The notes under the pieces: generated by a model
The model's input: only the letters and a program-made list of their open reading frames with translations
Told to the model about the DNA's origin: nothing
The model's database searches: none
Program-made: the position numbers and the translations under genes
Shown here: one piece after another, positions 7,594 to 60,490 of the stretch
Layout: every line of letters starts with the position of its first letter
Position numbering within the stretch: position 1 is the stretch's first letter
Source: Methanomicrobia archaeon
Lineage (GTDB): Archaea; Halobacteriota; Syntropharchaeia; Alkanophagales; Methanospirareceae
DNA: 64,000 bases
Assembly: GCA_016930255.1 (NCBI GenBank)
Contig: JAFGHB010000040.1
Coordinates: forward strand, 5,187 to 69,186
Reading direction: 5' to 3'

Positions 7594-7844
7594 CCCCCTC
7601 CGATTTGGTCTGGCCGTACCTTTATTGTAAACTATGCACATGCTCTTTAACCATTAGTTCTTCTGAACGAGGGGATATATAAAGTTATCGGTCATTCTCC
7701 CGGCTCTTTATCGCTTACCCTTCTCCAACCGCCTTCGCCTCTTCTTACCGACAGATAGACACCGTCGAGTGGAAGTCAACCACAAATTTTAAATAAGGCA
7801 TATCACCACTATAAACTAAGCGGGGTAATTAGTGGCACGTTAAG

Positions 7845-7853
7845 TTTATATAT
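7845..7853 (+). promoter_or_regulatory. putative archaeal TATA box (TTTATATAT) for the 7882 operon
   Basis: AT-rich TATA-like element centred about 33 nt upstream of ATG 7882. This would give a near-leaderless transcript. Confidence 0.3.
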
Positions 7854-7881
7854 TTGCCATATCTAAAAGGGAATAAAAGCA

Positions 7882-8760
7882 ATGGAAACGAAAACTGGTA
7901 TTGTTTCGGTCGTAGTGATGGCACTTTTTATACTTACGATAGTGGCTATGCCACTTAACGCGAGTGCTGATGAAATCCGAATTGACAGTATCGGCGATAA
8001 GAATATTGGCAAGGAGGTAACGGTTTCCGGTGTTATCATAGCGATTTCCAATAATGTCGAGCCGTCAAAAGAAAAAGGTACGGGCATTCAGACCTTCGAG
8101 CCCGGAGATACGGGCATTCTCACCATCGATGACGGTACAGATACGATACTCGTTAGCAGTGACCTCCGGCTCGTCGAAGAGTTTTACAAAGGCCAACGAG
8201 TGATGGTGACAGGAATATACGCCGGCAAAGTTGGCGATAATGGCCTTATCTATGCGGATACGGTGAGCACTGATGTATGGGCTGGCTACAAAGCCGTGAC
8301 GGTTAAAGAGCTTACCGATTTTCCTGAGTATTATTATGCACAGTCGGTGCGTATACAAGGGAATGTGACGCGCATGGAATTTACGCGCAATGAAACGGAT
8401 TTGACGGTTGACGACCAAACGGGGGCGATGGATGTGGAATACCGTGCGGAGCTGGAGACGATAACGGTCGACGATGAGGTGGTCGTCGAGGGTAAGTTTT
8501 ATCGTAACAAACTATATGCCTTCACGATACGGGCACCAGTATCGGAACCGGAAGTAACGCCTGAGCCACGCCCGACACCGACACCAACACCTACGTTGAC
8601 GCCAGCGCCAACGTCATTGACACCCACACCACAGCCTACGGAAGAAGAGAGTATGCCGATATATTACATAGTACTGATTATCGCCATTGTGGCCGTAGTA
8701 GGTGTGGTTCTTTCCTTCAGAGTACGAGACTGGCTCATGATTAGACGATATGGCAAATAA
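7882..8760 (+). CDS. secreted membrane-anchored protein with two OB-fold-like repeats, PT-rich linker and C-terminal TM anchor
   Basis: Signal peptide (IVSVVVMALFILTIVAMPLNASA). Two similar segments (…KEVTVSGVII… / …QSVRIQGNVT…). PTPTPTPTLTPAPTSLTPTPQPTEEES linker, then hydrophobic helix and basic tail. Confidence 0.6.
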   Translation: METKTGIVSVVVMALFILTIVAMPLNASADEIRIDSIGDKNIGKEVTVSGVIIAISNNVEPSKEKGTGIQTFEPGDTGILTIDDGTDTILVSSDLRLVEEFYKGQRVMVTGIYAGKVGDNGLIYADTVSTDVWAGYKAVTVKELTDFPEYYYAQSVRIQGNVTRMEFTRNETDLTVDDQTGAMDVEYRAELETITVDDEVVVEGKFYRNKLYAFTIRAPVSEPEVTPEPRPTPTPTPTLTPAPTSLTPTPQPTEEESMPIYYIVLIIAIVAVVGVVLSFRVRDWLMIRRYGK

Positions 8761-34441: not shown

Positions 34442-35089
34442 GTGATAGTTACACCTCCCGTACCGAAATATGTTCACATGTCCATATAAAACTTTAGCTT
34501 TTGACCTACAGATAGAATATTATATGCAAAAAATTAGGCAGGTAAGATAAGATCAAAAGGACGTTTTTAACTAATAAGGGGAAGTAGCCTCGATGAGGTA
34601 TAATAAGCTCTTCTATATTTGTACCGGTCTCAATTCCCTCGGGATGCAGCAGTCGTTCGATTCCAGAAGCTCAAAAAATCGTTATAAGAGGCTTCGTTCG
34701 TGTAGATCCGTTAATAAAAAGGGTAATGTCGTGAATAGAAGTTGGTTAGAGAGAAAAAGCGATGCCCATGCTGCCAGAAGAAGCTATGAAAAAGCGATGA
34801 ATACGGAAGAAAAAGAATGAAAAAAGACGGCTGAGACCAGTTGACAGCCTTATTTTTTCTAAATAAAAGGTATGATCCACTTTTCTAAATTATAAATGGC
34901 TATTAACGAATAAAAACACAAAATAAGCTCTAAAATTGCTCTATTCCGGCATTTTTACCAGTAAATACGTGTCCTAATCTCCCCCTCCGCATGCTTTTTC
35001 CTTACATGTACGAGCCTGCTCTACCTCCTCCGATCGCGTGTTAAGACTTATGTGCGCCGAACATAAACAAAAGACACGAGGATACTCAC

Positions 35090-37865: not shown

Positions 37866-39140
37866 ATGTTGAAACGGGCGCTGGGTCTCTGGCACATCAC
37901 TTTGATGAGCATCGGTGTCATTCTCGGTGCGGGCATTTATGTAATCATCGGCGAGGCTGCGGGCCTCAGTGGCACTGGGTTGTGGCTTTCATTCGTTTTC
38001 GCTGCGCTCGTTGCCTCGTTTACCGGTTTAAGCTATGCCGAACTCGCATCGCGGTTTCCCCATGCTGGAGCGGAATACGTTTACATTATGCATAGCTTCG
38101 GTCAAACGCTCGCATGGATCACCGGCTGGTTGCTCATTGTGAGTAGTATTCTAGCAGCGGCAACTGTAGCGGTCGGATTTGGAAACTACTGTTCTGCCCT
38201 CTTTCATACCCCAGTGATAGTCATTGCAATTGCCACCTTGTTGGTGTGCGGCCTTATTCTTATAGTGGGCATAAAAGAAACCGCGTTTATCACCATTCTC
38301 TTCACCGTGATTGAAGCGAGCGGTTTGATCATAATCATTTTCATCGGTGTGCCCTACCTGGGCTCGGTGAACTACCTGGAGCTTGCAAATGGCTTACAGG
38401 GGGTGATCAAAGCGGGCGTTTTGATCTTCTTCAGTTATATAGGGTTTGAGAGCATTGCGAGACTTGCGGAAGAAACCCGGGAACCTGAGCGTACCATACC
38501 CAAGGCGATTCTCCTCTCTATCGCGATAACGGCGGTCATTTACATCCTCGTTGGCATTGCTGCGGTAAGCGTTGTGCCGTGGCAGGAGCTAGCGCACGCA
38601 GAAGCGCCACTTGGGTTGGTTGCACAGCGCGTGTACGGCGATCAACTCTTTACCGTGCTCGCGGTCATTGCCTTATTCTCAACCTTTAATACCATGCTCG
38701 TCGTGCTGCTGAGTGGATCGCGCCTCGTTTACGGTATCGCGGAATACCGAGCGCTTCCTCGTGTATTCCTGTCCGTGAGCAAGAAACTTCGAACGCCATG
38801 GTTCGCTATCGTCAGCGTCGTGCTTGCCTCGCTCTGTTTCATCTTTGTGGGCGATTTGGCGACAATCGCGAATCTAACGAACTTCACCGTATTCCTCATA
38901 TTCCTCCTCGTTAACGCCGCGGTCATTTATCTCCGCTACAAAGAGCCGGTCGTTAGCGGCTTCAAAACTCCACTTACTATCGGTAAATTACCCCTTTTGC
39001 CGCTGTTTGGGTTAGTGACATCGCTCTTTATGCTCGTTAATCTCCCGCTTGATGTGCTCGCGATGGGCACCGCGCTTGTTCTTTTAGGCTTCGTTGTTCA
39101 CATCATCCTCAAGGTAAGCGTGAATGAGGAGTTATTTTGA
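37866..39140 (+). CDS. APC-family amino-acid permease
   Basis: MLKRALGLWHITLMSIGVILGAGIYVIIGEAAG… (GxG motif in TM1) and 12 predicted TM segments. Confidence 0.8.
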   Translation: MLKRALGLWHITLMSIGVILGAGIYVIIGEAAGLSGTGLWLSFVFAALVASFTGLSYAELASRFPHAGAEYVYIMHSFGQTLAWITGWLLIVSSILAAATVAVGFGNYCSALFHTPVIVIAIATLLVCGLILIVGIKETAFITILFTVIEASGLIIIIFIGVPYLGSVNYLELANGLQGVIKAGVLIFFSYIGFESIARLAEETREPERTIPKAILLSIAITAVIYILVGIAAVSVVPWQELAHAEAPLGLVAQRVYGDQLFTVLAVIALFSTFNTMLVVLLSGSRLVYGIAEYRALPRVFLSVSKKLRTPWFAIVSVVLASLCFIFVGDLATIANLTNFTVFLIFLLVNAAVIYLRYKEPVVSGFKTPLTIGKLPLLPLFGLVTSLFMLVNLPLDVLAMGTALVLLGFVVHIILKVSVNEELF

Positions 39141-39149
39141 GTGATGAAC

Positions 39150-39300
39150 AGTCGCTGGTGTTGTCTCGGAGGTAGAAGTAGAAAACGACCCATTTGTTAG
39201 TGAAGTCGTGCAAGCATATCTCCTTACCGTCCTTATCAATGAGGCAGAAACTCGGTGTAAGGTCTCCCATCTTCAAATCCCTTTGTTGCGCAGTTATGTA
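39150..39300 (-). pseudogene. 5' fragment of a bcp paralog (imperfect direct copy of 37620-37790)
   Basis: About 75% nucleotide identity to the bcp 5' end plus leader (…ggtagaagtagaaaacgacccat…aagtcgtgcaagc…). It would encode …LKMGDLTPSFCLIDKDGKEICLHDFTNKWVVFYFY… but the ATG is replaced by ATA and it is truncated after about 50 codons. Confidence 0.55.
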
Positions 39301-39327
39301 ACACCCCTTTGCTCAGCTTTAAGTTAG

Positions 39328-39825
39328 TCACTTTGGTATAATTTCTGATTCTTCCCATGTAGTATAGTTTAACGAGTATTTTTTCTTTGGAGGCTCTTTT
39401 AGCTGACCTAGATATTCCCATCTTAATTGTACTGATAGTTCATACTTCCCTGGCGTGATCCTGTCAGTTTCTAACTCTCCTACAAAGAACCAAAGCTTAT
39501 TTGTTGACCCGGGGAGTATATTTATCTGTGAGATCCTTTCGGTGTGAATAATATTGTATTTATTTCTGTAAAATGGATTATTCCAGTTTATCAACTCCGT
39601 AGAAGTGTTGTTAATCTCTACTTCTCCACTAACGTTTCTAGCGACATTCTTACCTTTGTTCTCAACGGTGAATCCGAAATATTTATTGGCGGGACTAGAA
39701 CGTTCCTTTTTTTCGGGATAAAGAATAAGTCTAGGCCTCTTGAGGTACTTCAGCACCGGGAAGAAACACACAACAGCCAAAGTAGCGACTGCTAAGGCTA
39801 CTTGTAGAACCGAAATATACTCCAT
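39328..39825 (-). CDS. hypothetical N-terminally anchored protein in AT-rich segment
   Basis: 165-aa ORF with N-terminal TM helix (VLQVALAVATLAVVCFFPVL). No recognisable family. Surrounding DNA is visibly AT-rich. Confidence 0.4.
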   Translation of the reverse strand: MEYISVLQVALAVATLAVVCFFPVLKYLKRPRLILYPEKKERSSPANKYFGFTVENKGKNVARNVSGEVEINNTSTELINWNNPFYRNKYNIIHTERISQINILPGSTNKLWFFVGELETDRITPGKYELSVQLRWEYLGQLKEPPKKKYSLNYTTWEESEIIPK

Positions 39826-39987
39826 AATTTTCTATACCAGCTCATAATATAAGTTCTATCCATACATTTGTTTTTGAAGTTGTATTTCATCTTTGTCAGC
39901 CGTATCAGATTTTCCTTTCGTTGGATGCTACACGATAATACTTTACTTCAAGAACTCAAAAGATTTATAGGCTTCGAACCGTAACGT

Positions 39988-40749
39988 TTGCTCATGCACG
40001 CCATTTCGCTCTTGCAAATCGCACCCACGCTGGCCGAGTTTTTCGGGGTGCCGCTGAACTCACCAGCCCGCCCGGTCGCGTCCATACGTAACTTTATGCG
40101 TGCTCGCAATCCTGATATGGTAGTATTAGTAGTGATCGACAGTCTCGATCTCCAGATTTATTCTGAGTTCGCCGTGGAATTGGAGGTGCTTCACCGGCTT
40201 GCCGAACGTGACGGGCTCCTCTTCTCTTGCGAGACGGTGAGCACGCATACAACACCAGCCATTGCGTCGCTTCTTACCGGTTTAGAACCCGAATCGCACG
40301 GGATCGTCGTGAGCGCCGACGTAGCGACATCGAAGATAAAATCCATTTTAGAGATACTCGACGATGAGGGCACGCCAACCGCAGCGGTACTCGACACGAA
40401 CGGTGCCGAACCGTTATTAGGACGGATGAGCTATGTCTTCGGCGTTGAGAACCGCGAGAACATAGTGGAATACGACGAGGAAATAAAGGCGCACACCCTC
40501 GCCGTAGTACAAAAGCAGGATGTACGGTTCGTGCTTGCGCATCTTCGTTCTATTGACCGGTTTACACATAGAGGCTGGGATTTACGTGTTGCCGCACGGA
40601 TCACCAACGGGAATATGGCGGTGATCGCAGAGGCGGTTCGCGATAGGGACGGAATGCTGTTTATCTGTGGAGACCACACGGCGCATCTTAAGGCGCGAAC
40701 AGCGGCACAAGGTAAAATTCCGGTACCGTTGATCGTTGCCGCGCCTTAA
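39988..40749 (+). CDS. alkaline-phosphatase-superfamily metalloenzyme (phosphodiesterase/nucleotide pyrophosphatase-like)
   Basis: …MVVLVVIDSLD… (N-terminal metal-binding Asp), …THTTPAIASLLTG…, …ICGDHTAH…. Confidence 0.5.
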   Translation: MLMHAISLLQIAPTLAEFFGVPLNSPARPVASIRNFMRARNPDMVVLVVIDSLDLQIYSEFAVELEVLHRLAERDGLLFSCETVSTHTTPAIASLLTGLEPESHGIVVSADVATSKIKSILEILDDEGTPTAAVLDTNGAEPLLGRMSYVFGVENRENIVEYDEEIKAHTLAVVQKQDVRFVLAHLRSIDRFTHRGWDLRVAARITNGNMAVIAEAVRDRDGMLFICGDHTAHLKARTAAQGKIPVPLIVAAP

Positions 40750-47652: not shown

Positions 47653-50600
47653 CTAAAACCTCTCCAAAAACTCCTCAATAACCTTTATATCCTCGTCGTT
47701 TAACCCGTACAGTTTATAAACAAGCTCGTTTATCTCCGCTTCGAGTTCCGTGACTGATGGCGACTTTGTTTGGGCTTTATCTTCCTCAAGCTCCTTCAAA
47801 ATCGCTTCGATAATCGCATCATTTTTGGGAACGAGAAGCTGCAGCTTTTCGTCTTTCTTTGCACGTTTTCCTTTTAGTGCCGCAACAACGTAATCTGCCT
47901 TCGGTTTTGAATCAACGAAAATGGCCGTTTCTTTTTTCCCGATTACGATGTTGTATCCACCACCCTCAACAGTTTTCTCTACAAAGGGTTCAAGCGTCTT
48001 GTGATTAGACTTGAAAGTGACGGATTTGGAGTCGAACTCTTCACCCCTGCTACGATAATCTTGAATGCAATCCTCAGGGAAGTTCTCGATTTTCTGCTCC
48101 AGCTTCACTAAATCTAAAATACGCTCGACTTTGTTCGTTATTTCGTCTGCAAGTTTTTGTTCTTCTGGAGTTTGTGGAAGTTTGATTGGAAGAGGTTCCA
48201 AATATTGTTTTTTATAACGGTAGTAATCTCCTGATACGGAAGGACTTATTTGCTTGTGGTAAAATTCTGTTAATTTCGAATTTAATAATCCCAATATGAA
48301 AGGGTAGTATTTTTTATATTCATTTTCTAAAATTATAACAAAACAAGTATCCATACAAAGCCAGCTTCCCGATTTGTCAAGACTAAATTTATTTCCAGTT
48401 GAAATATCCGGAGTGATAATTTTTTCTTCTAACATCTGAGGATTTGGATGCCAAAGTTCGTACCATCTTTTCCCAGTCTCCGAAATAGTCATTCTCCAAG
48501 ATTTCCTATTTTTGAGAATATCTTTATATTGCTCTAAATATCTCAAAACGTTTGGATATTCATCTAATTCTACAACTTCAAATGAATTATTTTCCTTTTT
48601 ATAAGGGTATATAATAAACGTATCAACTTTTGATGTGTCTCCAGTCCATATAAACCCCCATTTTTCAACATTTCTACCTCTAAGAATGGGATAAATAAGT
48701 TCTTCTTCAAGAGAGTGTTCTTTTATAAATTTTTTAGTAATAGGATTGATAAATACGTCATTGTTACCCGTAACGATGCCCTCATTAATCCTCTTGCTTA
48801 TGTCTACCAAATTTGAAGTGGAATCTTTTCGAATTTTCCCCACAACTTTTTGTTCTGGAGCAGATAAAAATTCCCAGGAATCTTTCAATCTTTCCTGCTT
48901 TATATCTAAAATTTCAATATAGTCATTTCTATATCCCTCTTTTGAGATATATATTCCGATGTAATCTAATATTTCATCTTTTGGTTTTAAAACATTAATA
49001 AATTTTAATGTATTCCCAGGTTCAAATTTATTTTTTACTATTATGACACTAGGATAATTTGTTGCGTCTTTAAAGACCCCTGTATCACCAAAATCTATCA
49101 ATGTTAGTATGGAATGATTGTTACAGATGAAGTCTCTTACCCTATTCCCATAGTGAGAATGAATAAACTTATTTGATGTAATAAATCCAAACTCTCCTTG
49201 TTGACTAAGCCAGTTGATTCCTCTTTCCATAAATGGAACAGCAAGATCAAACTTCCCTAACACGGTTTTATAGTTTTTTCTGAGGTAATCATTCATTTCC
49301 GTGGGCAAGCTCTGCACCCTCACATACGGGGGATTCCCCACCACGAAATCGTACTGCACGTAGTTTTTCAGAATCGCAGCAAGTATGATGTCCTCAAGGG
49401 ATTTAATCAGTTTACCATCGCCGAACGTGTCTTTAAGCTCCTTGAACTTCTGCAAGAAGTGCTTAGCGTACGGCGTGAAGAAAGATACCAAGCCATTCCA
49501 GTCTCTGTCCTTTAAATATCGCTTGAAATTACGCTCTAGCTCTTTTGTATCAACTTTGTACTTTTCTTGCCACGCAGCTTCTTTCACCGTGTCAAAAACC
49601 GCTTGGAGCGCTGCGAAATATTCCTCAACATTGGGCAAATCTGTTTTTGCAATGACCTCTTTGAAGTAAGGCATTTTTATCTTCAGGTCGCCACCCTCAA
49701 CGGGCAAGCCCGTGTCAATTGCAATAAAGTGGATACCTTTCGCAGACTCCTCAATAGTTACTTTCCTTGCCTCGCCCTTCGTCTCGTTAACCAGCGAATC
49801 CGTTCTGAAAATCGGCAGGCGATTCAGAACAAAATGGGGGTCCTCCTCCATCGCTTTCTTATACTTAGGAATCAGGACGAGCATGAACTGCATCTGCGCC
49901 ATAAACGTCGCGAACGGGTGAATATCAAAGCCGACGATGCAGTATTCGTTACAGAGCTCTTTTAAAATCTCCGACCACCCTTTTTCATCTGCGATTTGCT
50001 CAGACGCTTTGAGATAGCGCCGTAATACTTCGACCAGAAACGTCCCGGAGCCGCAGGCAGGATCTAACAGACGTTTACCAAAAACATTCCGTCCTTCGTA
50101 ACCAACTGCATCGAGTATGTACGTTACCACCTCTTGCGGCGTGTAAAACTCACCGAGTGCTTTCCTCGTCTCTTTATCGAAATAGCGCTGGTACAACGTG
50201 CCGAGTGGATCACCAATGATCTCCGAAAAGTCAAACTTGTAGAGTGTTAAAATGATCTCGGCAAGCGCCTCGCCAAAGTATCCTTTTTGCTTCTCATACC
50301 GGGGACTGAAAAGCGCATCTCCCGCGCTTATCTCTTTGTAACTGTCCTCCCACCAGTAGAAAATATCACCCTCGAAAACTGATTTAACCAGCTTCTGTTT
50401 CATGCTCTCAATGAGATTCTTCGTCGTTATCGCCCACGCCAGGAGCGTTATATCGCCCCGGTACGATGCCCGCTCAATTTCCGTCTTGATGAACCGGGAA
50501 AACTCGATATACGGCAGTTTATAATCCTCACACGCCTTCGCCAGAATCAACCGTGTGAATAAAGAATACGCACTTTCCAAGCAGAACATGAACTTGAAAA

Positions 50601-51369
50601 GATTCTCCTCGCTCGCTTCAAGCCCGATACTATCCATTATCTTCCGCCAATTCTCTGGCACTTTCTCCGGCTTCTTCGCGTACGAAACCTTCCAGAAATT
50701 GTACGCGCTTTTAAGAAACTTAGACCGCTCCAACTCGAAATCAAACAGGCCGATTGTCTTTTGAACCAAAATCGAAAATATAGAGCCTTCTTTCAGTTCG
50801 AAGCTCTCAAAGAAATACTCCTGCGCAATCTCCGTGGATAAATTTACTTTCTCCTCAGGTTTATCAAACCGCTCGAAATAGCCGAGCACCTCTTCAATCC
50901 TCGTTCTCTCAATGCTTGGCTTTTTTAGCCACTCATAAACCTCTTCGCATTGCGATAACGTAACATCGTCAAGAGTAACGTGCAGTTTTCGTTCCCAGTT
51001 AGAGTTTATCCGCTCATAAATCAGAAGTTCCAATCCATCGGTAAGTAGTCCATATCTCGCTTTGAGCGGTTTCACATACCGCTCCCACAATTGTGCAAAA
51101 TCTCGTTCTACATTAATCTCATTCGGCCTTTTAAATTCAACCACAAACACCACATTCTGATAGTCGTCAAAGGCAAGCAAGTCGCTTCTTTTGCCTCTTA
51201 CACTCTTCTCAAATCGTATATCCTTAAACTCTTTCTCGTAACCAAGCACTTCAAGGATACCACTCTTTACAAAAGCCACCCGTAAATCCTCTTCAGAAAT
51301 CTCCTTCCCGCTTTTTATCTTCGCGTGTAGCTCTTCGAAGCTTGCACGTATCTTCTTGGCAGTGTCCAT
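47653..51369 (-). CDS. type IIG/IIL bifunctional restriction-modification enzyme (MmeI/Eco57I-like: N-terminal PD-(D/E)XK endonuclease + gamma-class N6-adenine MTase + TRD)
   Basis: N-terminus …LLAFDDYQNVVFVVEFKRPNE… (D-x9-ExK). MTase motif I …RLLDPACGSGTFLVEV… and motif IV …FVVGNPPYVRVQS… Long C-terminal target-recognition region ending …ELEAEINELVYKLYGLNDEDIKVIEEFL. The TRD-coding part (about 48.2-49.3 kb) is much more AT-rich than the rest. Confidence 0.85.
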   Translation of the reverse strand: MDTAKKIRASFEELHAKIKSGKEISEEDLRVAFVKSGILEVLGYEKEFKDIRFEKSVRGKRSDLLAFDDYQNVVFVVEFKRPNEINVERDFAQLWERYVKPLKARYGLLTDGLELLIYERINSNWERKLHVTLDDVTLSQCEEVYEWLKKPSIERTRIEEVLGYFERFDKPEEKVNLSTEIAQEYFFESFELKEGSIFSILVQKTIGLFDFELERSKFLKSAYNFWKVSYAKKPEKVPENWRKIMDSIGLEASEENLFKFMFCLESAYSLFTRLILAKACEDYKLPYIEFSRFIKTEIERASYRGDITLLAWAITTKNLIESMKQKLVKSVFEGDIFYWWEDSYKEISAGDALFSPRYEKQKGYFGEALAEIILTLYKFDFSEIIGDPLGTLYQRYFDKETRKALGEFYTPQEVVTYILDAVGYEGRNVFGKRLLDPACGSGTFLVEVLRRYLKASEQIADEKGWSEILKELCNEYCIVGFDIHPFATFMAQMQFMLVLIPKYKKAMEEDPHFVLNRLPIFRTDSLVNETKGEARKVTIEESAKGIHFIAIDTGLPVEGGDLKIKMPYFKEVIAKTDLPNVEEYFAALQAVFDTVKEAAWQEKYKVDTKELERNFKRYLKDRDWNGLVSFFTPYAKHFLQKFKELKDTFGDGKLIKSLEDIILAAILKNYVQYDFVVGNPPYVRVQSLPTEMNDYLRKNYKTVLGKFDLAVPFMERGINWLSQQGEFGFITSNKFIHSHYGNRVRDFICNNHSILTLIDFGDTGVFKDATNYPSVIIVKNKFEPGNTLKFINVLKPKDEILDYIGIYISKEGYRNDYIEILDIKQERLKDSWEFLSAPEQKVVGKIRKDSTSNLVDISKRINEGIVTGNNDVFINPITKKFIKEHSLEEELIYPILRGRNVEKWGFIWTGDTSKVDTFIIYPYKKENNSFEVVELDEYPNVLRYLEQYKDILKNRKSWRMTISETGKRWYELWHPNPQMLEEKIITPDISTGNKFSLDKSGSWLCMDTCFVIILENEYKKYYPFILGLLNSKLTEFYHKQISPSVSGDYYRYKKQYLEPLPIKLPQTPEEQKLADEITNKVERILDLVKLEQKIENFPEDCIQDYRSRGEEFDSKSVTFKSNHKTLEPFVEKTVEGGGYNIVIGKKETAIFVDSKPKADYVVAALKGKRAKKDEKLQLLVPKNDAIIEAILKELEEDKAQTKSPSVTELEAEINELVYKLYGLNDEDIKVIEEFLERF

Positions 51370-51373
51370 TTGC

Positions 51374-51964
51374 TTATACTTCTCTAATATCCTTTACAAG
51401 GAAATTACCACCCTTTAGTTTTACGCCTGCTATCTCGAATTTCTTACCGAGTAACGCGCCTCTTATTCGTGCAAGCGTTGCCTCTTCCCTTATCTTCTTC
51501 GCTTCTTCCAGAGTGATCTTCGCACATTTCTCTGCTATTTCCTTTTTGAAAATCAACGTGCAGCGTTCTCTTCCATTATCGAACCGGGCTTTGATTCGTA
51601 GATCCCAGATCCCCTCAACATCGCTGTGCACGATACAAAAATTATCGATGATCCATCGATTGCATTTGGGACACCGCTGGATAAGCCCACTGCCATCGTA
51701 AATCTGTGTTATGTTTCCCACGAGTGTCATGAGATCCTCGCTCGGTTCCGAAGTCTTTGTGAACGAAGGTTTCTCAAGGAGTTCCTCAACCTGCTCTGCC
51801 TCAATAACAATAGCATTCGGAAACTTTTCTGAGAACGAATTCAAAACCTCAAGCGCTTTCTCTTCGCCCCGCGTCTCAAGAATCTTTAACGCCTCGGGAT
51901 GAATTTGATAGCCCCGCCCAAGAATCCGTTTCAATATGCCTTCGGTTGATGATGAAAAAGCCAT
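51374..51964 (-). CDS. OB-fold/zinc-ribbon nucleic-acid-binding protein (RPA-like), translationally coupled to the RM enzyme
   Basis: 196 aa. …NAIVIEAEQVEELLEKP…TLVGNITQIYDGSGLIQRCPKCNRWIIDNFCIVHSDVEGIWDLRIKARFDDG… has CxxC…C.xH inserted in an OB-like segment. Its stop lies 4 nt before the RM start codon. Confidence 0.4.
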   Translation of the reverse strand: MAFSSSTEGILKRILGRGYQIHPEALKILETRGEEKALEVLNSFSEKFPNAIVIEAEQVEELLEKPSFTKTSEPSEDLMTLVGNITQIYDGSGLIQRCPKCNRWIIDNFCIVHSDVEGIWDLRIKARFDNGRERCTLIFKKEIAEKCAKITLEEAKKIREEATLARIRGALLGKKFEIAGVKLKGGNFLVKDIREV

Positions 51965-54122: not shown

Positions 54123-54749
54123 ATGGATGAGATAGAGCTAATCACACGTTCTGGAGGCCATTTCTATCGTACCCCGATCGGTATTCTCCCTAGTGTGACC
54201 ACTATTATGCGCTCGATTCAGAACCCACACTTGATCGCGTGGAAGAGCAGGACTCCAAACTGGAGAAAAATCGCCTCACACGCCGCGTACGTCGGCACGA
54301 AGACGCATCGCACTATCGAACGCTACCTCAACGACGAATCGCTTGACGAGCTTTACTGCGATGAGGTCTCGAAACCGTTCGCCGCATTCCGGGACTGGCA
54401 GTGCGCGAGCGGCTTCACGCTGGTAGACTGCGAACGAAGGATATGGAGCGACAACGGCTACGGCGGGACGGTAGATCTCGTCGGGTATATTAACGGCGCG
54501 CTATACCTCATTGATATAAAGACCTCGAAAGCGGTCTATCCTGATTATTCGCTTCAGATCGCAGCGTATCGAACCGGCTACGAGGAACGAACCGGCGAGC
54601 AGATCGAGGGCATGGGCATCCTGCGATTGGACAAACCCACCGGCGCGTTTGAATGGAAGGAATATTGCGATACTGAGTATCAAAGCGCCTGGGAGGAGTT
54701 CATGCTTCTCTGTGAGTCCTGGCATTCTACCAATAAGGATAACGAATGA
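54123..54749 (+). CDS. PD-(D/E)XK-superfamily nuclease (YqaJ/lambda-exonuclease/Cas4-like core without Fe-S cysteines)
   Basis: …GTVDLVGYINGALYLIDIKTSK…QIAAYRTGYE… gives the D…(I/L)D.K motif plus a downstream QxxxY motif. No C-terminal 4-Cys cluster. Confidence 0.55.
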   Translation: MDEIELITRSGGHFYRTPIGILPSVTTIMRSIQNPHLIAWKSRTPNWRKIASHAAYVGTKTHRTIERYLNDESLDELYCDEVSKPFAAFRDWQCASGFTLVDCERRIWSDNGYGGTVDLVGYINGALYLIDIKTSKAVYPDYSLQIAAYRTGYEERTGEQIEGMGILRLDKPTGAFEWKEYCDTEYQSAWEEFMLLCESWHSTNKDNE

Positions 54750-55354
54750 GCGCAAGAACTGTACAGACGGACCTGAGCGCATACGTCAACGTCAAGACCA
54801 CGGATAAAACACCGAATATCCTCGATTTGATCGTTCGATTAGTAACAGAAGAAGAAGGGCCGTGGCGCGGAACCGTGCGGGAATTACGGGACTGCCTAGG
54901 CTTGGACATACCGTCACAGAGCTTGGCCGTATTGCTCGAGCAGGCGCAGGCTGAGTTCGAACGCCGTGGGATCGTGATCGATCGTAAACACGAGACGGGC
55001 CAGCACGTCATCGCGATCTCGTACGAGCCCGAAGCAGGTGCAGCGCCAGACGAGCCGTCGACATCGCATGAACCCGGCGCCGTGAGCCATGCCGAAATCG
55101 CGACGGCCGTTGAATATCCGGTAACCTTCCCGTTCTCCTGGGTCATCAACGCGAAGGAGATCACCAGGATACGCGAACTTTCGCACGAAGAGCAGGCGAA
55201 CGCGAGACAGGAGCGTAAGACCTGCAGCTTGTGTGGCAGCAAAGAGATAGCATACGAGAAGCTCTCCAGTGGATTTTCCCACTTGATTTGTGCAGAGTGC
55301 GCTACCCGCTACGTGCTCAACGCAGACGCGTTAAAACGTCGAGTGGAGAGTTGA
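54746..55354 (+). CDS. hypothetical protein with C-terminal zinc ribbon, coupled to the nuclease
   Basis: ATGA overlap with the upstream nuclease. C-terminus CSLCGSKEIAYEKLSSGFSHLICAECATRY. Confidence 0.5.
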   Translation: MSARTVQTDLSAYVNVKTTDKTPNILDLIVRLVTEEEGPWRGTVRELRDCLGLDIPSQSLAVLLEQAQAEFERRGIVIDRKHETGQHVIAISYEPEAGAAPDEPSTSHEPGAVSHAEIATAVEYPVTFPFSWVINAKEITRIRELSHEEQANARQERKTCSLCGSKEIAYEKLSSGFSHLICAECATRYVLNADALKRRVES

Positions 55355-55465
55355 TGCAAAGGTTATTAAAGATGAATTTACGACTTTCAACTAGAGGAAA
55401 GCGTGCTGTGCGTGAATAAGATACTTATGCTAACGAGGGGGTTTAGCGATAAGTTGAAAGAAGCA

Positions 55466-56461
55466 ATGTTCTACGAGAAGCTGGAAGGGAACACCGTTCG
55501 ATGCCACCTCTGTCCACATCAGTGCAAGATAAACGACACGAAAAGAGGAATCTGCGGCGTGCGCGAGAACAAGGAGGGTGTCCTTTACAGTCTCGTCTAC
55601 GGTAAGGTCGCGGCGCAGGCGATAGACCCGATAGAGAAGAAGCCGCTATTCCATTTCTATCCTGGCTCAACGGCCTACTCGATTGCGACTGTTGGCTGCA
55701 ACTTCCGCTGCCGGAACTGCCAGAACTACGATATATCCCAGATGCCGAAGGACCAGAAACGGATTGTGGGCGACTACAAATCTCCCGAAGAGGTCGTTGC
55801 GGTCGCCACGCATTACAATTGCAAAAGCATCGCGTATACGTACGTGGAGCCGACCGTCTTCTTCGAGTTTGCCTACGATATCGCCAAGCTCGCCCATGAA
55901 GAGGGGATCTGCAACGTCTTCGTCTCGAACGGGTACACCTCGGAAGAGGCAATCCGTACGCTCGCACCCGTTTTGGACGGAATAAATATAGACCTGAAAG
56001 GGCTCTCGGAAGAGCTGTACCATAAGAATTGCGGCGGGCATCTGCAGCCTGTACTCGACGCGATAGCGCTTTACAAGAGTCTCGGCGTTTGGGTCGAAGT
56101 AACGACGCTGGTCATACCGACGCTGAACGACACTGAAGCGGATTTCCGAGGGATCGCAGAATTCATCAAAGGCGTCGGCGTGGACATACCCTGGCATATC
56201 TCGCAGTTCTACCCCACCTACAAGCTCACCGATCTGCCCCGGACGCCGATTACAACTCTGCACAAAGCGCGTGACATCGGGCTTGAAGTCGGCTTGCGGT
56301 ACGTGTACGAGGGCAACGTTCCGGGTGAGGGCGGCGAGAACACCTACTGCTACAAGTGCGGGACCCTACTGATCAGACGCTACGGATTCCAGATTCTGGA
56401 GAACAATATGAGAGGTTCACACTGCCCTCATTGCGGTGCCGAGATCGACGGGGTGTTTTAA
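55466..56461 (+). CDS. AmmeMemoRadiSam-system radical SAM enzyme (PFL-activase-like)
   Basis: MFYEKLEGNTVRCHLCPHQCKINDTKRGICGVRENKEGVLYSLVYGKVAAQAIDPIEKKPLFHFYPGS…VGCNFRCRNCQNYDISQ… C-terminal …HCPHCGAEIDG. Alternative upstream starts exist at 55403 and 55427. Confidence 0.85.
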   Translation: MFYEKLEGNTVRCHLCPHQCKINDTKRGICGVRENKEGVLYSLVYGKVAAQAIDPIEKKPLFHFYPGSTAYSIATVGCNFRCRNCQNYDISQMPKDQKRIVGDYKSPEEVVAVATHYNCKSIAYTYVEPTVFFEFAYDIAKLAHEEGICNVFVSNGYTSEEAIRTLAPVLDGINIDLKGLSEELYHKNCGGHLQPVLDAIALYKSLGVWVEVTTLVIPTLNDTEADFRGIAEFIKGVGVDIPWHISQFYPTYKLTDLPRTPITTLHKARDIGLEVGLRYVYEGNVPGEGGENTYCYKCGTLLIRRYGFQILENNMRGSHCPHCGAEIDGVF

Positions 56462-56699
56462 GGTTACGATTGGCTTTCAAGTGGCAGCCTTACCGAAGCA
56501 GTAATGGTAATGCGGTATTAAAGTGCGAACGCTGACCCTGAGGTGTAGGTTTAAAAATAGGGATGCAAGAGAGCATATCCTAAGAAATTTGTTCACCATT
56601 CCATTTGGGGTCTCCCTTGTTTTTCTAATAATCTTCATAATTTTGTTGCATTTTTGTTGTGCCTTACCTCCCATACGTTTTTTATTACATAGAATATCC

Positions 56700-57401
56700 T
56701 CATAATGGTAGATTTCCATTTGTAATTATCCTTGCATTGATTTCGCCATAAACAGTGTTAGTTAGAATTAGGAGACGCTTTAGGTGAAGGTTGCAATATT
56801 CCAACACATCAGGATTAGTCCTGAACGTTCTTGCCATGACATCCACACGTGGGTTATCTGGTAATGGTAGTGTTAATGTCTTAGCCTCGGTATCTCCATC
56901 AATTGTTACTTCTATATTGAAATTTCCTGCAATTATACGCTCATGGGTCACCGCATTTCTGTACATGGAAAAATCATTCCTCCAGCTAGGATCGTCGAAC
57001 CGACTTATAAGTGCATCACCAGGGCGATTACTTCTTAGCAGTCGTTTTGCGGTCTGGAAATATACCTGTGTGGGGAGTGGGATGGCAAAGTATGTTAATA
57101 CTTCGCGAGCCAAAATATCCATTGCGCTGCCACATGTGTAAAAAAAGCCATCCAAGTACATGTTAGCAAGAAACATAAAGTTACTGCTTTTGCTAAGTGC
57201 ATCTGCTAGTTCTGTAGTTGACATTAGGTCAATCAATGAATCGAGATGGTGCCGAGCGCATTTGATTTTATGAATTAAAGCAAAGTGGTACCTTCTATAT
57301 CCTTTAACTATATCATCTGGAACATTACCAGATTCTTTCAAGGAATCAATAGTACTCTCAAGTCTTCCACAGTTAGTAAAATGGTGGTATGGTGTGAACA
57401 T
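56700..57401 (-). CDS. hypothetical protein with RNxxxH (HEPN-like) motif, AT-rich islet
   Basis: 233-aa ORF with …FSMYRNAVTHERI… (R-x4-H). The start codon overlaps the stop of the upstream gene (TAATG). Confidence 0.45.
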   Translation of the reverse strand: MFTPYHHFTNCGRLESTIDSLKESGNVPDDIVKGYRRYHFALIHKIKCARHHLDSLIDLMSTTELADALSKSSNFMFLANMYLDGFFYTCGSAMDILAREVLTYFAIPLPTQVYFQTAKRLLRSNRPGDALISRFDDPSWRNDFSMYRNAVTHERIIAGNFNIEVTIDGDTEAKTLTLPLPDNPRVDVMARTFRTNPDVLEYCNLHLKRLLILTNTVYGEINARIITNGNLPL

Positions 57402-58096
57402 TATGATTTTCCTCGCATTCGTTGGGCAATAGTGTCTTTAAGCGAGGCACTTAACTGACCCCTAATATCTTTAAGATCCATTTCTTTCCCACATTCCTCG
57501 CAGATGAAGATACTATTTTCAGGAAAACGATTAATACCACCTTTTGGATGGATATCTGGGTTTAATTGTTCCTCAAATATGTAAACATGTTCGCAGTCAG
57601 AACAGTGGATATTGACCCTGAAGGAAGGTGAATCGTCACCTAACTGTTTTACAAATCCCAATTCAGCTTCGGTAAATTCCGGCCATTCTCTTTTTTGTAT
57701 ATCCAAAGGAATCCTGAGTGTTCCTGGATAATCCCGAAATGAAAATATAACGTCGTGAAATCCATCTTCTTCAAATTTATTTTTCACGCTGAAGGTGACT
57801 ATGATATCCCCTTTGTTTTCTTTAGATTTGACATCTAGTAGGGCTAAAGATTTTGATTTACGAGATCTCCTTTTTGAAATTGAAACGGCTACTGATGTAG
57901 CGCCCTTTGGTAAATTGAAAATGGTAAACACTGCACTAAATGTTCGTGTGAATGGGATAGACCACGCATAAAGAATAGTGAATACCCCTGAGACATCTGC
58001 TTTTCCGCTTTCGCCAAGCCTAAAAGAGTCAACTAAAACTCCAGACCCAAAAAATGGTGTAATTTTCTTTTTCTTTTCACTTTTAGGTTTAGCCAT
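57401..58096 (-). CDS. hypothetical protein with Lys-rich N-terminus and C-terminal zinc ribbon, AT-rich islet
   Basis: 231 aa: MAKPKSEKKKKITPFFGSG… and …HCSDCEHVYIFEEQ…FICEECGKEMD…. Confidence 0.45.
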   Translation of the reverse strand: MAKPKSEKKKKITPFFGSGVLVDSFRLGESGKADVSGVFTILYAWSIPFTRTFSAVFTIFNLPKGATSVAVSISKRRSRKSKSLALLDVKSKENKGDIIVTFSVKNKFEEDGFHDVIFSFRDYPGTLRIPLDIQKREWPEFTEAELGFVKQLGDDSPSFRVNIHCSDCEHVYIFEEQLNPDIHPKGGINRFPENSIFICEECGKEMDLKDIRGQLSASLKDTIAQRMRGKS

Positions 58097-58375
58097 TTTC
58101 GATCCACCAAAAATTTCTTAAAATGGGTTCCTGAATTGCGGATATTTTTTTATTTTTATTCTTTATTTCTCACGTGGATATAAAAGACTTTCCAAGAGAT
58201 TTTATGGTGTTTTTGAAATTGAGTTCTTTGATGGGAAAATATGTGGATAGCACTCTGTCACACATTTTTCAAATATCTTCATATTTCGAGGGGAAAGAAG
58301 GAAGGAGAAGGTTTATTTCTATTACAAAAAACCACGTTGGAAAAATAAGTGCTAAAAATAAAATTCAAACAGCAA

Positions 58376-60490
58376 CTATGTGCGAGATAACACCCGCTTC
58401 AATTCTTCCAGATCCGTAATCGGCGCTTTGCACGTGTACTCTTCGCAGATATACACCGTCGGCTTTCCTTCTATCGCTACTTTACCGCTAATGAGTGGTG
58501 TCAACTCTGGAAGTTCAGATTCGGTAACGCCCGGCTGTGAGAACGCAACGACGTTATGCGGCAGAAAATGACGCCCAAGTTCAGCCGCAAATGCCTGTGC
58601 CTCTTCTCTGTTACGGCTCGCTAGTACGACCTGTGCGGGGCTACTGAGAGAGAACGCAACGGCACAGAGCATTTGCGTGTGCTCCAGTGGGCTCTGGTCC
58701 AATGTCGCACGGAACGCGCGAAAAATGGTTTCAGCCCGCTTCTTCAGTTCTTCATTATCCGTTAGCGCTGCGAGTCGAAGGATGTTCTGCGCGGCAACCG
58801 AGTTGCCAGAGGGAATCGGCCCGTCGTACGCATCCTTTATGGCTACGGCAAGCTCCAGTTCACTGGTAAGATTGGAGAAGAATCCGCCATCTGCTTTGTC
58901 CCAGAAAAGCTCCAGCATACTATTGTTCAGTTGCAGCGCCTCGCGTAACCATTGTGACTCGAAATGAGCCTCATAGAGGTCGAGCAATCCCGCAACAAAA
59001 TACGCGTAATCTTCAAGTGTTCCTGAAATTGAAGCCTCACCGTCGCGATAACGCCGCAATAGCCGCCCGTCTTTCCTGAGATTGTCACGAATAAAGCGAG
59101 CAGCGGACATTGCCGCTTCGAGATAGCGATTGTCACGGAACACCTGGTATCCCAGAGCGAACGCAGAAATCATCAGACCGTTCCAGCCAGTTATAATCTT
59201 GTCATCGGTCGCGGGGCGTATCCGTTTGTTCCTCGCCTCAAGCAGCTTCTGGGTGCTCGCACGAATAGTACCTTCATCGAGTCCCGTGGATGCTTCCGCT
59301 ATAAAAAGTACACTTTTCCCTCGCTCGAAGTTGCCCTGCGGTGTCACCCCGTAGTAACGACAGAGTGCTTCGCCCTGCTCTTTTCCCAGCACTGATCTTA
59401 TCTCCTCAGGATCCCAGACATAAAAGGCACCTTCCAGGCCCTCGCTGTCCGCATCCACCGCGGAGTAAAAGCCTCCTTCAGGGCCGGTCATCTCGCGCAG
59501 CACCCAATCCAGCGTCCGGCGCGCAACCTGCGCGAAGAACGGATCACGCGTTACTTGATATGCCTCTGTATAAGCCCTGGCTAAGAGCGCGTTATCGTAC
59601 AGCATCTTCTCGAAATGCGGCACCAGCCAGCGGTTATCTGTTGAATATCGGTGAAAACCACCACCTAATTGGTCGAAGATGCCTCCTCGAGCCATTCCAT
59701 AGAGCGTCTTCGTCACCATCTTCAACGCGTATTCCTCCTGCGTTCTGTAATAATACCGGAGAAGGAACGAGAGATAGCTGGGCAACGGGAACTTCGGCTT
59801 CTTTACCGACCATGCGGTTACCGCCGCGCCAAATCCGCCGTAGTTCGAATCGAACTGGAGAACGAGTTGCTCATACGCGTTATCAAGCAGATCTGCTGAG
59901 AGCGCCTCCTCCACGCCCGCTGGCGGCTTATGCCGGTATATGCCGCGCACGAGCTGTATAACCTCTTCCGAACTCCGCTCTAGCTGTTCCCGCTTCGTTC
60001 GCCATGAGTCAGCAATGGTACGAAGCAAATCGTTAAAGGCTGGTAAGCCGTGTAGAGGTTCAGGAGGGAAATAGGTCCCGCCATAGAACGGCTTCAGGTC
60101 GGACGTAAGAAAGACCGACAGCGGCCAGCCACCCGTGCCCGCCATCATCTGCACCGCTTTCATGTAGATCTCGTCCAGGTCTGGACGCTCTTCGCGATCC
60201 ACTTTAATGCTGACAAAGTGCTCGTTGAGGATCTCCGCGGTCTGCGGATTCTCAAAGGATTCGCGTGCCATTACATGGCACCAATGGCAGGTCGCAAAGC
60301 CGATACTGAGGAAGATTGGTTTGTCCTCATCCTTAGCACGTCTCCACGCCTCCTCACCCCAGGGATACCAATTAACGGGGTTATACGCATGCTGAAGCAG
60401 ATACGGACTCTTCTCCGTTATAAGTGCATTTGGAGCCTTTCCTTCCCCTTCATCGCTTCCGTGCATAGCAAGAAGCACCTCCAACCGCAA
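58376..60490 (-). CDS. thioredoxin-domain protein YyaL (DUF255 + six-hairpin glycosidase-like domain)
   Basis: …[80 protein letters not shown]…. Confidence 0.85.

What the first reader, a model, noticed from the sequence alone, without database searches (positions are those of the whole stretch)
56470..58370. AT-rich islet with two translationally coupled unknown genes; one has an RNxxxH motif, the other a zinc ribbon
Base composition drops sharply between the radical SAM and yyaL genes. Inside are two ~230-aa ORFs on the minus strand whose stop and start overlap (TAATG). The downstream protein has YRNAVTHE (R-x4-H, the HEPN RNase signature). The upstream one has a poly-Lys N-terminus and a C-terminal CxxC…CxxC ribbon. 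This resembles HEPN-type abortive-infection or TA modules and may be an undescribed two-gene defence unit acquired horizontally.
Basis: partly seen in the sequence, partly recalled or inferred. Interest (0 to 1): 0.6.

Follow-up and report, generated by a model that had tools for sequence, protein, structure and literature searches.

The report
Mobile HEPN nuclease with zinc-ribbon partner
A 1.9-kb stretch of foreign, AT-rich DNA in this archaeal genome carries two tightly linked genes, a predicted HEPN RNA-cutting enzyme and a zinc-binding partner protein; the pair moves between archaea and many bacterial phyla and looks like an uncharacterised toxin-antitoxin or anti-virus module.

Summary
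An AT-rich islet (GC 0.32-0.43, flanks about 0.54; third-codon-position GC 0.30-0.34 against 0.58-0.71) lies between a radical SAM gene and yyaL. It holds two minus-strand genes, B (57401-58096) and A (56700-57401), joined by TAATG.

A is a HEPN protein. Its model is confident (pLDDT 92) and has the canonical helix order, with the invariant R148-N-x3-H153 at the end of helix 3. Its best PDB matches are HepT toxins, though weakly. Its profile aligns at 100% probability with relatives that pass Pfam's cut-off for Cthe_2314-like HEPN (PF18730).

B is a DUF6941 beta-sandwich followed by a Cys4 zinc ribbon and a conserved C-terminal helix.

B lies directly upstream of A in 44 of 50 non-redundant loci that have room for it, and the other six are decayed. 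The pair occurs in this archaeon and in at least nine bacterial phyla or classes. It is always lower in GC than its host and often sits beside integrases, restriction-modification, BREX or toxin-antitoxin genes. It matched nothing in PADLOC, NCBIfam or the searchable literature.

The most likely reading is a mobile HEPN toxin plus controller module, for toxin-antitoxin or abortive-infection function. That function is inferred, not shown. I rate it a new variant of a known kind, of moderate interest.

The parts
57401..58096 (-). Gene B (231 aa): DUF6941 beta-sandwich, then a Cys4 zinc ribbon, then a conserved C-terminal helix. Predicted partner or controller of the nuclease.
   Evidence: ORF. 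It is 100% identical to a hypothetical protein of a Methanomicrobia archaeon MAG. Model. Three homologues pass the PF22091 cut-off. It lies directly upstream of A in 44 of 50 loci.
57698..58054 (-). B residues about 15-133: DUF6941 (PF22091) beta-sandwich domain, the most variable part of the pair.
   Evidence: Eight strands in the model. Foldseek matches macroglobulin and Fn3-like sandwiches. Pfam gives E 0.1 for the window protein, and 28-33 bits against a 27-bit cut-off for L011, L013 and P0049. Mean pairwise identity is 32%.
57491..57604 (-). B residues 165-202: Cys4 zinc ribbon (C165, C168, C199, C202).
   Evidence: All four Cys are at least 97% conserved in 43 pairs. Weak zinc-ribbon family hits. 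Beta-hairpins in the model.
57399..57403 (-). TAATG junction: the stop of B overlaps the start of A by one base.
   Evidence: The gap between B and A is -8 to +4 nt in 11 loci.
56700..57401 (-). Gene A (233 aa): divergent Cthe_2314-like HEPN domain protein, the predicted RNase effector.
   Evidence: AF2 model with pLDDT 92 and pTM 0.88. Foldseek top hits are HepT toxins. The profile search links it to relatives that match PF18730. hhalign gives 100% probability, E 8.6e-42.
56943..56960 (-). Codons for R148-N-A-V-T-H153, the Rx4H HEPN catalytic motif.
   Evidence: Invariant in A1. R148 is invariant and H153 at least 90% conserved in 84 distant family members. It sits at the end of helix 141-154, as described for HEPN in PMC3710099.
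58097..58375 (-). AT-rich 5' spacer (GC about 0.32-0.35), presumed to hold the promoter. A TATA-like TTTTAAGAAA lies at 58114-58123, about 22 nt before the ATG.
   Evidence: Sequence, composition. It is not conserved in related loci. The promoter assignment is inference only.
56462..56699 (-). AT-rich 3' spacer between the end of A and the convergent radical SAM gene. No conserved gene or RNA.
   Evidence: The 80-aa ORF 56477-56719 has no counterpart in 90 loci. No Rfam match.

Best explanation
The islet is a horizontally acquired two-gene cassette.

Gene A encodes a HEPN-fold ribonuclease of the Cthe_2314-like clade. By analogy with characterised HEPN RNases it should dimerise, so that two R148-N-x3-H153 motifs form the active site. 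D95 on helix 2 probably assists catalysis. Gene B is translated just before A from the same transcript. It encodes a DUF6941 beta-sandwich, a Cys4 zinc ribbon and a conserved C-terminal helix.

I propose that B binds A and controls it. B most likely holds A inactive through its better-conserved zinc ribbon and helix. Its fast-evolving beta-sandwich would act as the trigger-sensing or labile part. When B is lost or occupied, for example during virus infection or after loss of the element, A cleaves cellular RNA and growth stops. That would make the pair a toxin-antitoxin or abortive-infection module.

Shown here:
- the HEPN fold and homology, with an intact motif;
- the domain make-up of B;
- obligate linkage and co-evolution of B and A;
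- foreign composition and spread across domains;
- frequent neighbours from mobile elements and defence systems.

Inferred only: RNase activity, toxicity, a direct B-A complex, the direction of control, and the trigger.
For: **A is a HEPN protein.**
- The model has pLDDT 92, with helices 29-62, 72-104, an insert, helix 141-154 ending in RNxxTH, then helix 199-228. This matches the HEPN description in PMC3710099.
- The best PDB matches are HepT and other HEPN toxins: 7bxo_F at probability 0.99, then 6m6u, 6m6w, 4nqf and 8yuf.
- Of 83 distant relatives found with the A profile, 51 match PF18730, the best at E 7e-13. Three of ten relatives checked individually pass Pfam's cut-off. hhalign gives 100% probability with the motifs in register.

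**B's make-up:**

**Linkage.**
- 63 non-redundant loci were found. B is directly upstream in 44 of the 50 with room, and the rest are decayed.
- The gap between the genes is -8 to +4 nt.
- The A and B distance matrices correlate: Mantel r 0.81, with 0 of 2000 permutations reaching it.
- A is more conserved than B in 98% of pairs (46.7% against 36.1% mean identity). B's N-terminal domain is the most variable part, at 32%.

**Mobility.**
- Third-codon-position GC is 0.30-0.34 against 0.58-0.71 for neighbours.
- The pair is lower in GC than its flanks in all 12 hosts tested.
- Hosts are a Methanomicrobia archaeon, Aminicenantes, Sumerlaeia, Cloacimonas, Prolixibacteraceae, Bacteroidetes, Armatimonadota, Dehalococcoidia, Calditrichia and Planctomycetota.

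**Context.**
- Integrases lie beside or near the pair in L004, L015, L009, L039, L062, L065 and L085.
- L016 has a serine recombinase.
- L003 is a prophage with an adjacent type III restriction-modification system.
- L006 has MazEF and DUF433/DUF5615 on either side of the pair, and L059 has a PemK toxin.
- L033 has a type I HsdR and L037 a type ISP-like enzyme.
- In 121 further neighbours the commonest families are N6_Mtase and Phage_integrase, followed by ResIII, with one BrxL.
Against: - No experiment supports any step.
- The Foldseek matches to HEPN structures are weak (E 0.036, TM 0.3-0.5). The window protein itself is below every Pfam threshold.
- B has none of the usual antitoxin DNA-binding domains and is as large as A.
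- L062 keeps an intact A with only the last 44 residues of B, and L033 has a frameshifted B with an intact A. Both are awkward for a strict toxin-antitoxin dependence, unless the C-terminal piece is enough or A is silent.
- Several loci, including this window, L010 and L011, sit among housekeeping genes.
- There was no match in 50,697 phage records, 72,556 plasmid records or IMG/VR.
- The neighbourhood enrichment has no background control.
Confidence: 0.55

Rival explanations
1. Split sensor-effector, like RAZR. A is harmless on its own. B is a positive sensor whose zinc ribbon or beta-sandwich recognises a viral protein and then assembles or activates the HEPN nuclease. B is not an antitoxin.
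For: RAZR (PD-T7-4) couples a Cys4 zinc ribbon that binds phage portal-like rings to a HEPN RNase and acts by abortive infection (PMC13017515). Here a zinc ribbon and a HEPN protein are obligately linked. Intact A survives with B truncated in L062 or frameshifted in L033, which is easier to explain if A alone is not toxic. B's fast-evolving N-terminal domain fits a sensor.
Against: The zinc ribbon and HEPN are on separate proteins, and the HEPN family differs (Cthe_2314-like, not DUF4145). The PADLOC models named in the search output for this call gave no hit. The order B then A with overlapping stop and start is the classic antitoxin-toxin layout. No orphan intact A with B entirely absent was seen in 50 loci.
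Confidence: 0.2
2. A pure addiction module. It is a toxin-antitoxin pair that only stabilises the mobile elements carrying it and has no role in immunity.
For: It is frequently next to integrases, recombinases and IS elements. The cassette is compact and its genes are coupled.
Against: In the window and in L010 and L011 it sits alone among chromosomal housekeeping genes, with no element to stabilise. Restriction-modification and BREX neighbours suggest defence hot-spots. It was not found on any of 72,556 sequenced plasmids.
Confidence: 0.12
3. A non-conflict function. B and A form a two-subunit RNA-processing or regulatory nuclease, with B's zinc ribbon providing RNA binding, used in the host's own RNA metabolism.
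For: Some HEPN proteins are housekeeping RNA-processing enzymes (PMC3710099). Several loci have only metabolic neighbours. B has a basic N-terminus in the window's clade.
Against: The distribution is extremely patchy: 7 of 185,579 species-representative genomes. The composition is foreign in every host. Decayed copies exist. Mobile-element and defence neighbours are frequent. The basic N-terminus is not conserved.
Confidence: 0.08

Closest known systems
Cthe_2314-like HEPN family (Pfam PF18730; Anantharaman et al. 2013, PMC3710099)
   Same: A is homologous to it. The A profile retrieves relatives, 51 of 83 of which match PF18730, and three of ten checked individually pass its cut-off. hhalign gives 100% probability. 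The YR(N/C)xxTHE, DGFF..S..D.LA.E and LPDDP motifs are shared.
   Different: The window protein and its 233-aa subfamily fall below the Pfam threshold: 0 hits for the window protein, and 2 of 36 weak hits in the subfamily. The 2013 survey listed no gene-neighbourhood association and only bacteria for this family. Here there is an obligate DUF6941-zinc-ribbon partner and an archaeal host. No member of the family has been characterised experimentally as far as I could find.
HEPN-MNT (HepT-MntA) type VII toxin-antitoxin systems
   Same: A two-gene operon with a HEPN RNase toxin carrying Rx4H. HepT structures are A's best PDB fold matches. Both are mobile and widespread in archaea and bacteria.
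   Different: The partner is not a minimal nucleotidyltransferase. B has no NTase domain, so neutralisation by AMPylation is not expected. A is about 100 residues longer than HepT, with a helical insert and a beta-hairpin.
RAZR / PD-T7-4 (zinc-finger-HEPN abortive-infection protein; PMC13017515)
   Same: It combines a Cys4 zinc ribbon with a HEPN RNase. The zinc ribbon is the virus-sensing part and the outcome is RNA cleavage with growth arrest. This is a plausible working model for B plus A.
   Different: RAZR is a single polypeptide with the zinc ribbon at the N-terminus and a DUF4145-type HEPN. Here there are two proteins, an extra DUF6941 sandwich and a different HEPN family. The PADLOC search gave no hit for either protein.
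Lactococcal HEPN abortive-infection proteins (AbiD/F, AbiJ, AbiU2, AbiV) and RnlA-RnlB / LsoA-LsoB
   Same: These are HEPN effectors in small mobile anti-phage or toxin-antitoxin modules, often near restriction-modification genes.
   Different: No sequence-profile match to any of them in Pfam or PADLOC. Their partner proteins are unrelated to B.

Membership tests
HEPN superfamily | Four-helix up-down bundle with an insert between helices 2 and 3 | tested here: met
HEPN superfamily | Rx4-6H motif at the end of helix 3, with a small polar residue after R and a conserved acidic residue on helix 2 | tested here: met
   R148-N149-x3-H153 ends helix 141-154. R148 is invariant and H153 at least 90% conserved over 84 family members. 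D95 on helix 72-104 is at least 90% conserved. The expected position is described in PMC3710099.
HEPN superfamily | Metal-independent RNase activity from a dimeric composite active site | not testable with these tools
   This needs biochemistry.
Cthe_2314-like HEPN (PF18730) | Score above Pfam's gathering threshold (27.1 bits) | tested here: not met
   The window protein has no Pfam hit at E <= 1. In its subfamily 2 of 36 members hit, at best E 0.0096.
Cthe_2314-like HEPN (PF18730) | Demonstrable homology to bona fide members | tested here: met
   P0097, P0105 and P0108 are found by the A profile at E 3e-23 to 1e-17 over 1.8 billion proteins. They score 27.4-31.5 bits on PF18730. In all, 51 of 83 relatives match it. 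hhalign gives 100% probability, E 8.6e-42.
DUF6941 (PF22091), for protein B | Score above the gathering threshold (27 bits) over the 125-position model | tested here: inconclusive
   Window B scores 13.4 bits, E 0.1. Its orthologues L013 (33.4), P0049 (28.3) and L011 (28.0) pass over model positions 3-124. Membership of the family as a whole is therefore likely.
HEPN-MNT toxin-antitoxin | Partner is a minimal nucleotidyltransferase (MNT) | tested here: not met
   B has no NTase match in Pfam, NCBIfam or PADLOC. Its model is a beta-sandwich plus a zinc ribbon.
RAZR / PD-T7-4 | A single protein with an N-terminal Cys4 zinc ribbon fused to a DUF4145 HEPN | tested here: not met
   There are two separate proteins. 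No PADLOC hit for either and no DUF4145 hit.
Type II-like toxin-antitoxin module (generic) | Two co-transcribed, tightly coupled genes that are always found together | tested here: met
   TAATG overlap. Gap of -8 to +4 nt in 11 loci. B precedes A in 44 of 50 loci, the rest decayed. The two proteins co-evolve.
Type II-like toxin-antitoxin module (generic) | One product is toxic and the other neutralises it | not testable with these tools
   This requires expression assays.
Anti-phage defence system (guilt by association) | Recurrent location in defence islands or mobile-element hot-spots | tested here: inconclusive
   At least 16 non-redundant loci have integrases, recombinases, restriction-modification or toxin-antitoxin genes within about 5 kb. 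Restriction-modification and integrase families top the neighbour counts, and one BrxL (BREX) neighbour was also found but not assigned to a locus. No background control was possible, and several loci, including the window, have housekeeping neighbours.

The most novel reading that the evidence does not exclude
The DUF6941-zinc-ribbon protein together with this Cthe_2314-like HEPN protein is a new, widely transferred anti-virus (abortive-infection) system working in both archaea and bacteria. B would be a new class of trigger-sensing controller. Other Cthe_2314-like HEPN subfamilies would be parallel systems that swap the controller, for an unknown 243-aa protein or for DUF3467. This would give the first function to two uncharacterised families (PF18730 and PF22091).
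Probability: 0.4. Interest if true: 0.6.

Novelty: new variant of a known kind. Interest (0 to 1): 0.45.

Why it matters
HEPN RNases are recurrent effectors of prokaryotic immunity, in Cas13, Csm6, the Abi proteins, HepT and RAZR. The Cthe_2314-like branch has no assigned partner, context or function.

This work gives it three things:
- a fixed partner, DUF6941 plus a zinc ribbon;
- a mobile, defence-like lifestyle;
- a clear case of transfer between bacteria and a methanogen-related archaeon.

If confirmed by experiment, it would add a compact two-gene system of about 1.4 kb to the defence catalogue and give a function to two families of unknown role. It would also offer a natural split version of the zinc-ribbon-HEPN logic seen in RAZR, which would help in working out how sensing is coupled to nuclease activation. 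It is not a new principle. Many such candidate modules exist, so the value is incremental until tested.

Tried and rejected
**Direct family scans.**
- A had no hit in Pfam, NCBIfam or PADLOC and only a weak E 0.13 match in PHROGs. B gave only weak zinc-ribbon and DUF6941 hits.
- Sequence and profile searches of the PDB with A1, A3 and A4 found no relative with a solved structure.

**Fold searches.**
- Foldseek against BFVD for A was uninformative.
- Foldseek against the PDB for B gave only generic beta-sandwich matches.

**Mobile-element collections.** There was no homologue of A in sequenced phages, PLSDB plasmids or IMG/VR contigs. The cassette is therefore not typical of known phages or plasmids.

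**Ideas rejected.**
- A third gene or an RNA element in the islet. The small ORFs 56477-56719 and 58174-58419 and both spacers are not conserved in 90 loci, and Rfam finds nothing.
- att-like flanking repeats. Only one imperfect 22-nt repeat (77%) in AT-rich DNA was found, probably by chance.
- The poly-Lys N-terminus as a functional hallmark. It is not conserved outside the closest clade.
- B being related to the partner of distant HEPN relatives. hhalign probability is 0.1%.
- The window's pair being part of a contiguous defence island. The genes between it and the type IIG restriction-modification gene are DUF364-like, a HAD hydrolase, an exonuclease and a radical SAM enzyme.

**Literature.** Searches for DUF6941, PF22091 and PF18730 returned nothing.
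Full report
**1. The observation.** The window comes from a Methanomicrobia archaeon MAG: protein B is 100% identical to a hypothetical protein of such a MAG. Between a radical SAM gene (55403-56461, +) and a yyaL gene (58376-60490, -), GC in 300-nt windows falls from 0.54-0.57 to 0.32-0.43. The radical SAM gene is of the AmmeMemoRadiSam type (TIGR04337, E 3e-107), and the yyaL gene is of the DUF255 type.

The islet holds two minus-strand ORFs, B (57401-58096, 231 aa) and A (56700-57401, 233 aa). The TAA stop of B shares a base with the ATG of A, giving TAATG. Third-codon-position GC is 0.30 for B and 0.34 for A, against 0.58-0.71 for neighbouring genes. Their synonymous codon use is the most atypical of the 14 genes tested. 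The YRNAVTHE motif, the CxxC...CxxC pairs and the Lys-rich N-terminus are all present.

**2. Protein A is a HEPN domain protein.** No Pfam, NCBIfam or PADLOC model matches A directly, and PHROGs gives only a weak E 0.13 match. Four lines of evidence still place it in the HEPN superfamily.

- *Model topology.* An AlphaFold2 model built on 36 homologues is confident (pLDDT 92, pTM 0.88). Its order of elements is helix 29-62, helix 72-104, a helical insert, helix 141-154 ending in R148-N-A-V-T-H153, a beta-hairpin, then helix 199-228. Anantharaman et al. describe exactly this for HEPN. They describe a four-helix bundle with an insert between helices 2 and 3. [quoted passage not shown] D95 on helix 72-104 fits that acidic residue.
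- *Fold matches.* The best Foldseek matches in the PDB are HEPN toxins: HepT 7bxo_F (E 0.036, probability 0.99), then 6m6u, 6m6w, 4nqf and 8yuf. Their TM-scores are low, at 0.3-0.5.
- *Profile search.* An exhaustive search of 1.84 billion representatives found 195 relatives. Of 83 distant ones, 51 match Pfam PF18730, Cthe_2314-like HEPN, the best at E 7e-13. P0097, P0105 and P0108 pass its gathering cut-off.
- *Profile-profile alignment.* The A subfamily aligns to these relatives with 100% probability (E 8.6e-42), and YRNxxTHE lines up with YR(N/C)xTHE.

R148 is invariant, and H153, K45 and D95 are at least 90% conserved across the wide family. A is therefore a divergent subfamily of the Cthe_2314-like HEPN clade with an intact catalytic motif. 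No relative has a solved structure.

**3. Protein B.** The model is of moderate confidence (pLDDT 75). It shows an eight-strand beta-sandwich (residues 15-133), a helix, a zinc ribbon built from two beta-hairpins carrying C165/C168 and C199/C202, and a C-terminal helix.

The sandwich is DUF6941 (PF22091). The window protein scores only 13 bits, but the orthologues L013, P0049 and L011 pass the 27-bit cut-off. Foldseek finds only generic macroglobulin and Fn3-like sandwiches. The four cysteines, W45, P48, W138, G187, F191 and P192 are at least 97% conserved. The poly-Lys N-terminus is specific to the closest clade and is disordered.

**4. The pair is an obligate, co-evolving, mobile unit.** Protein searches, one scan of species-representative genomes and one scan of metagenome contigs gave 63 non-redundant A loci at 97% identity.

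- *Linkage.* In 44 of the 50 loci with room upstream, a full-length B lies directly upstream of A. The other six are decayed. A is truncated in L009, L070, L081 and L086, B is frameshifted in L033, and only the last 44 residues of B remain in L062.
- *Coupling.* The distance between B and A is -8 to +4 nt.
- *Co-evolution.* The A and B distance matrices correlate (Mantel r 0.81; 0 of 2000 permutations reach it). A is more conserved than B in 98% of comparisons (46.7% against 36.1%). Within B, the sandwich (32%) varies more than the zinc ribbon and helix (41%).
- *Hosts.* They include Aminicenantes, Sumerlaeia, Cloacimonas, Prolixibacteraceae, Bacteroidetes, Armatimonadota, Dehalococcoidia, Calditrichia and Planctomycetota.
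- *Composition.* The pair is lower in GC than its flanks in all 12 hosts tested, by up to 21 points.
- *Recent transfer.* The window's coding DNA is 76-79% identical to copies in L025, L027 and the Aminicenantes MAG (L010). The spacers and the small ORFs in them have no counterpart. The transferred unit is therefore just the two genes, and a transfer between domains has occurred.

**5. Neighbourhoods.**

| Locus | Neighbours of the pair |
|---|---|
| L004, L015 | tyrosine integrase directly upstream |
| L009 | integrases near a decayed copy |
| L016 | serine recombinase, excisionase-type HTH, AAA_25 |
| L003 | inside a Calditrichia prophage, next to a type III restriction-modification system |
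| L006 | between MazEF and DUF433/DUF5615 pairs, among IS elements |
| L059 | PemK toxin downstream |
| L039, L062, L065, L085 | integrases |
| L033 | type I HsdR |
| L037 | type ISP-like enzyme |

Among 121 neighbours from 27 further loci, the commonest Pfam families are N6_Mtase (4), Phage_integrase (4), ResIII (3) and DEAD (3). SWI2_SNF2, HSDR_N, Methylase_S and Eco57I follow with 2 each, and there is one BrxL.

Against this, several loci are flanked by ordinary metabolic genes. L010 has Fpg and glutamate dehydrogenase, L011 has heparinase and transporters, and the window itself is another case. No copy was found in sequenced phages, plasmids or IMG/VR. I could not run a background control, so the association is suggestive rather than quantified.

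**6. Mechanism.** The best-supported reading is a HEPN RNase effector (A) controlled by its co-translated partner (B).

The order B then A, the overlapping stop and start, and the more conserved effector beside a faster-evolving partner are all typical of antitoxin-toxin pairs. So is the absence of intact A without any trace of B. The variable sandwich is a natural candidate for a sensing or labile module.

RAZR (PD-T7-4) is a characterised precedent. It is a single-chain Cys4 zinc ribbon plus HEPN protein whose zinc ribbon senses phage portal-like rings and activates RNA cleavage (PMC13017515). It shows that a zinc ribbon coupled to a HEPN domain can work as an activating sensor. That is the main rival for the direction of control. 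L062 and L033, where A is intact and B is damaged, lean slightly that way. RNase activity, toxicity, a physical B-A complex and the trigger are all inferred.

**7. Comparison with what is known.** A belongs to the Cthe_2314-like HEPN clade by homology but falls below the Pfam threshold. The 2013 survey recorded no context for that family and only bacterial members. The system is not HEPN-MNT, because B is not a nucleotidyltransferase. It is not RAZR, which is one protein with a different HEPN family, and PADLOC gave no hit for either protein. It is not any lactococcal Abi or RnlA type either. DUF6941, PF22091 and PF18730 do not appear in the searchable literature.

Distant Cthe_2314-like relatives carry different partners. 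One is an unknown 243-aa protein upstream in L017, L018 and L021-23. The other is DUF3467 downstream in L019 and L020. A conserved effector with exchangeable partners is itself typical of conflict systems.

**8. Verdict.** This is a real, horizontally acquired two-gene cassette. Its effector is a HEPN protein and its partner is an uncharacterised DUF6941-zinc-ribbon protein. It is a new variant of a known kind, the HEPN-based toxin-antitoxin or abortive-infection module, and not a new principle. Interest is moderate (0.45). It is a clean, testable candidate with an unusual spread across both domains, but many comparable candidates exist and no function has been demonstrated.

Noticed in passing
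window 47653-51964 (-): A second AT-rich patch (GC 0.32-0.46) holds a 1238-aa single-chain type IIG restriction-modification enzyme (HSDR_N_2, N6_Mtase, Eco57I and TaqI_C domains). An unknown 196-aa ORF (51374-51964) lies 4 nt away and has no PDB or Pfam match. It is probably another horizontally acquired defence gene, about 5 kb from the finding.
   Followed up: partly
window 54123-55354 (+): A phage-type PD-(D/E)XK exonuclease (phrog_298 E 1.5e-35, with weak Cas4-like hits) overlaps by 4 nt a 202-aa protein with a C-terminal CxxC...CxxC finger (phrog_2945). Both have host-like GC. They may be a remnant of an integrated virus.
   Followed up: partly
L018 946-1677, L021 823-1554, L017 1-450; L019 1411-1683: More distant Cthe_2314-like HEPN relatives have different fixed partners. 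One is an unknown 243-aa protein 14 nt upstream, with no Pfam or PDB match and unrelated to B. The other is a DUF3467 protein just downstream. This suggests a family of HEPN modules with exchangeable partners.
   Followed up: partly
L062 2548-3445; L033 140-1523; L042 4945-6349; L009 7529-8926: These are natural decay variants. L062 keeps an intact A with only the last 44 residues of B, near an integrase. L033 has a frameshifted B with an intact A. L042 has an intact B with a frameshifted A. L009 is a decayed copy in which a B fragment is fused to A. L062 and L033 bear on whether A is toxic without B.
   Followed up: partly
window 56700-58096 vs L010, L025, L027, L028: The archaeal copy is 76-79% identical at the DNA level to copies in an Aminicenantes bacterium MAG and in sediment metagenomes, over the coding region only. 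This implies fairly recent transfer between bacteria and archaea, or a binning error in one MAG.
   Followed up: partly
window 56621-56642 and 58265-58286: An imperfect 22-nt direct repeat (77% identity) flanks the two-gene cassette inside the AT-rich spacers. It is probably chance in AT-rich DNA, but it could be a remnant of the insertion borders.
   Followed up: no
P0115 (1315 aa): This large protein matches positions 104-141 of the A profile in 17 separate stretches. It looks like a repeat protein built from a short segment resembling A's helix 2-3 insert.
   Followed up: no
window 33000-35000, 39000-40000, 7000-8000: Further stretches of lowered GC (0.40-0.44, against a window mean of about 0.49) appear in the 1-kb composition profile. 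I did not examine them.
   Followed up: no
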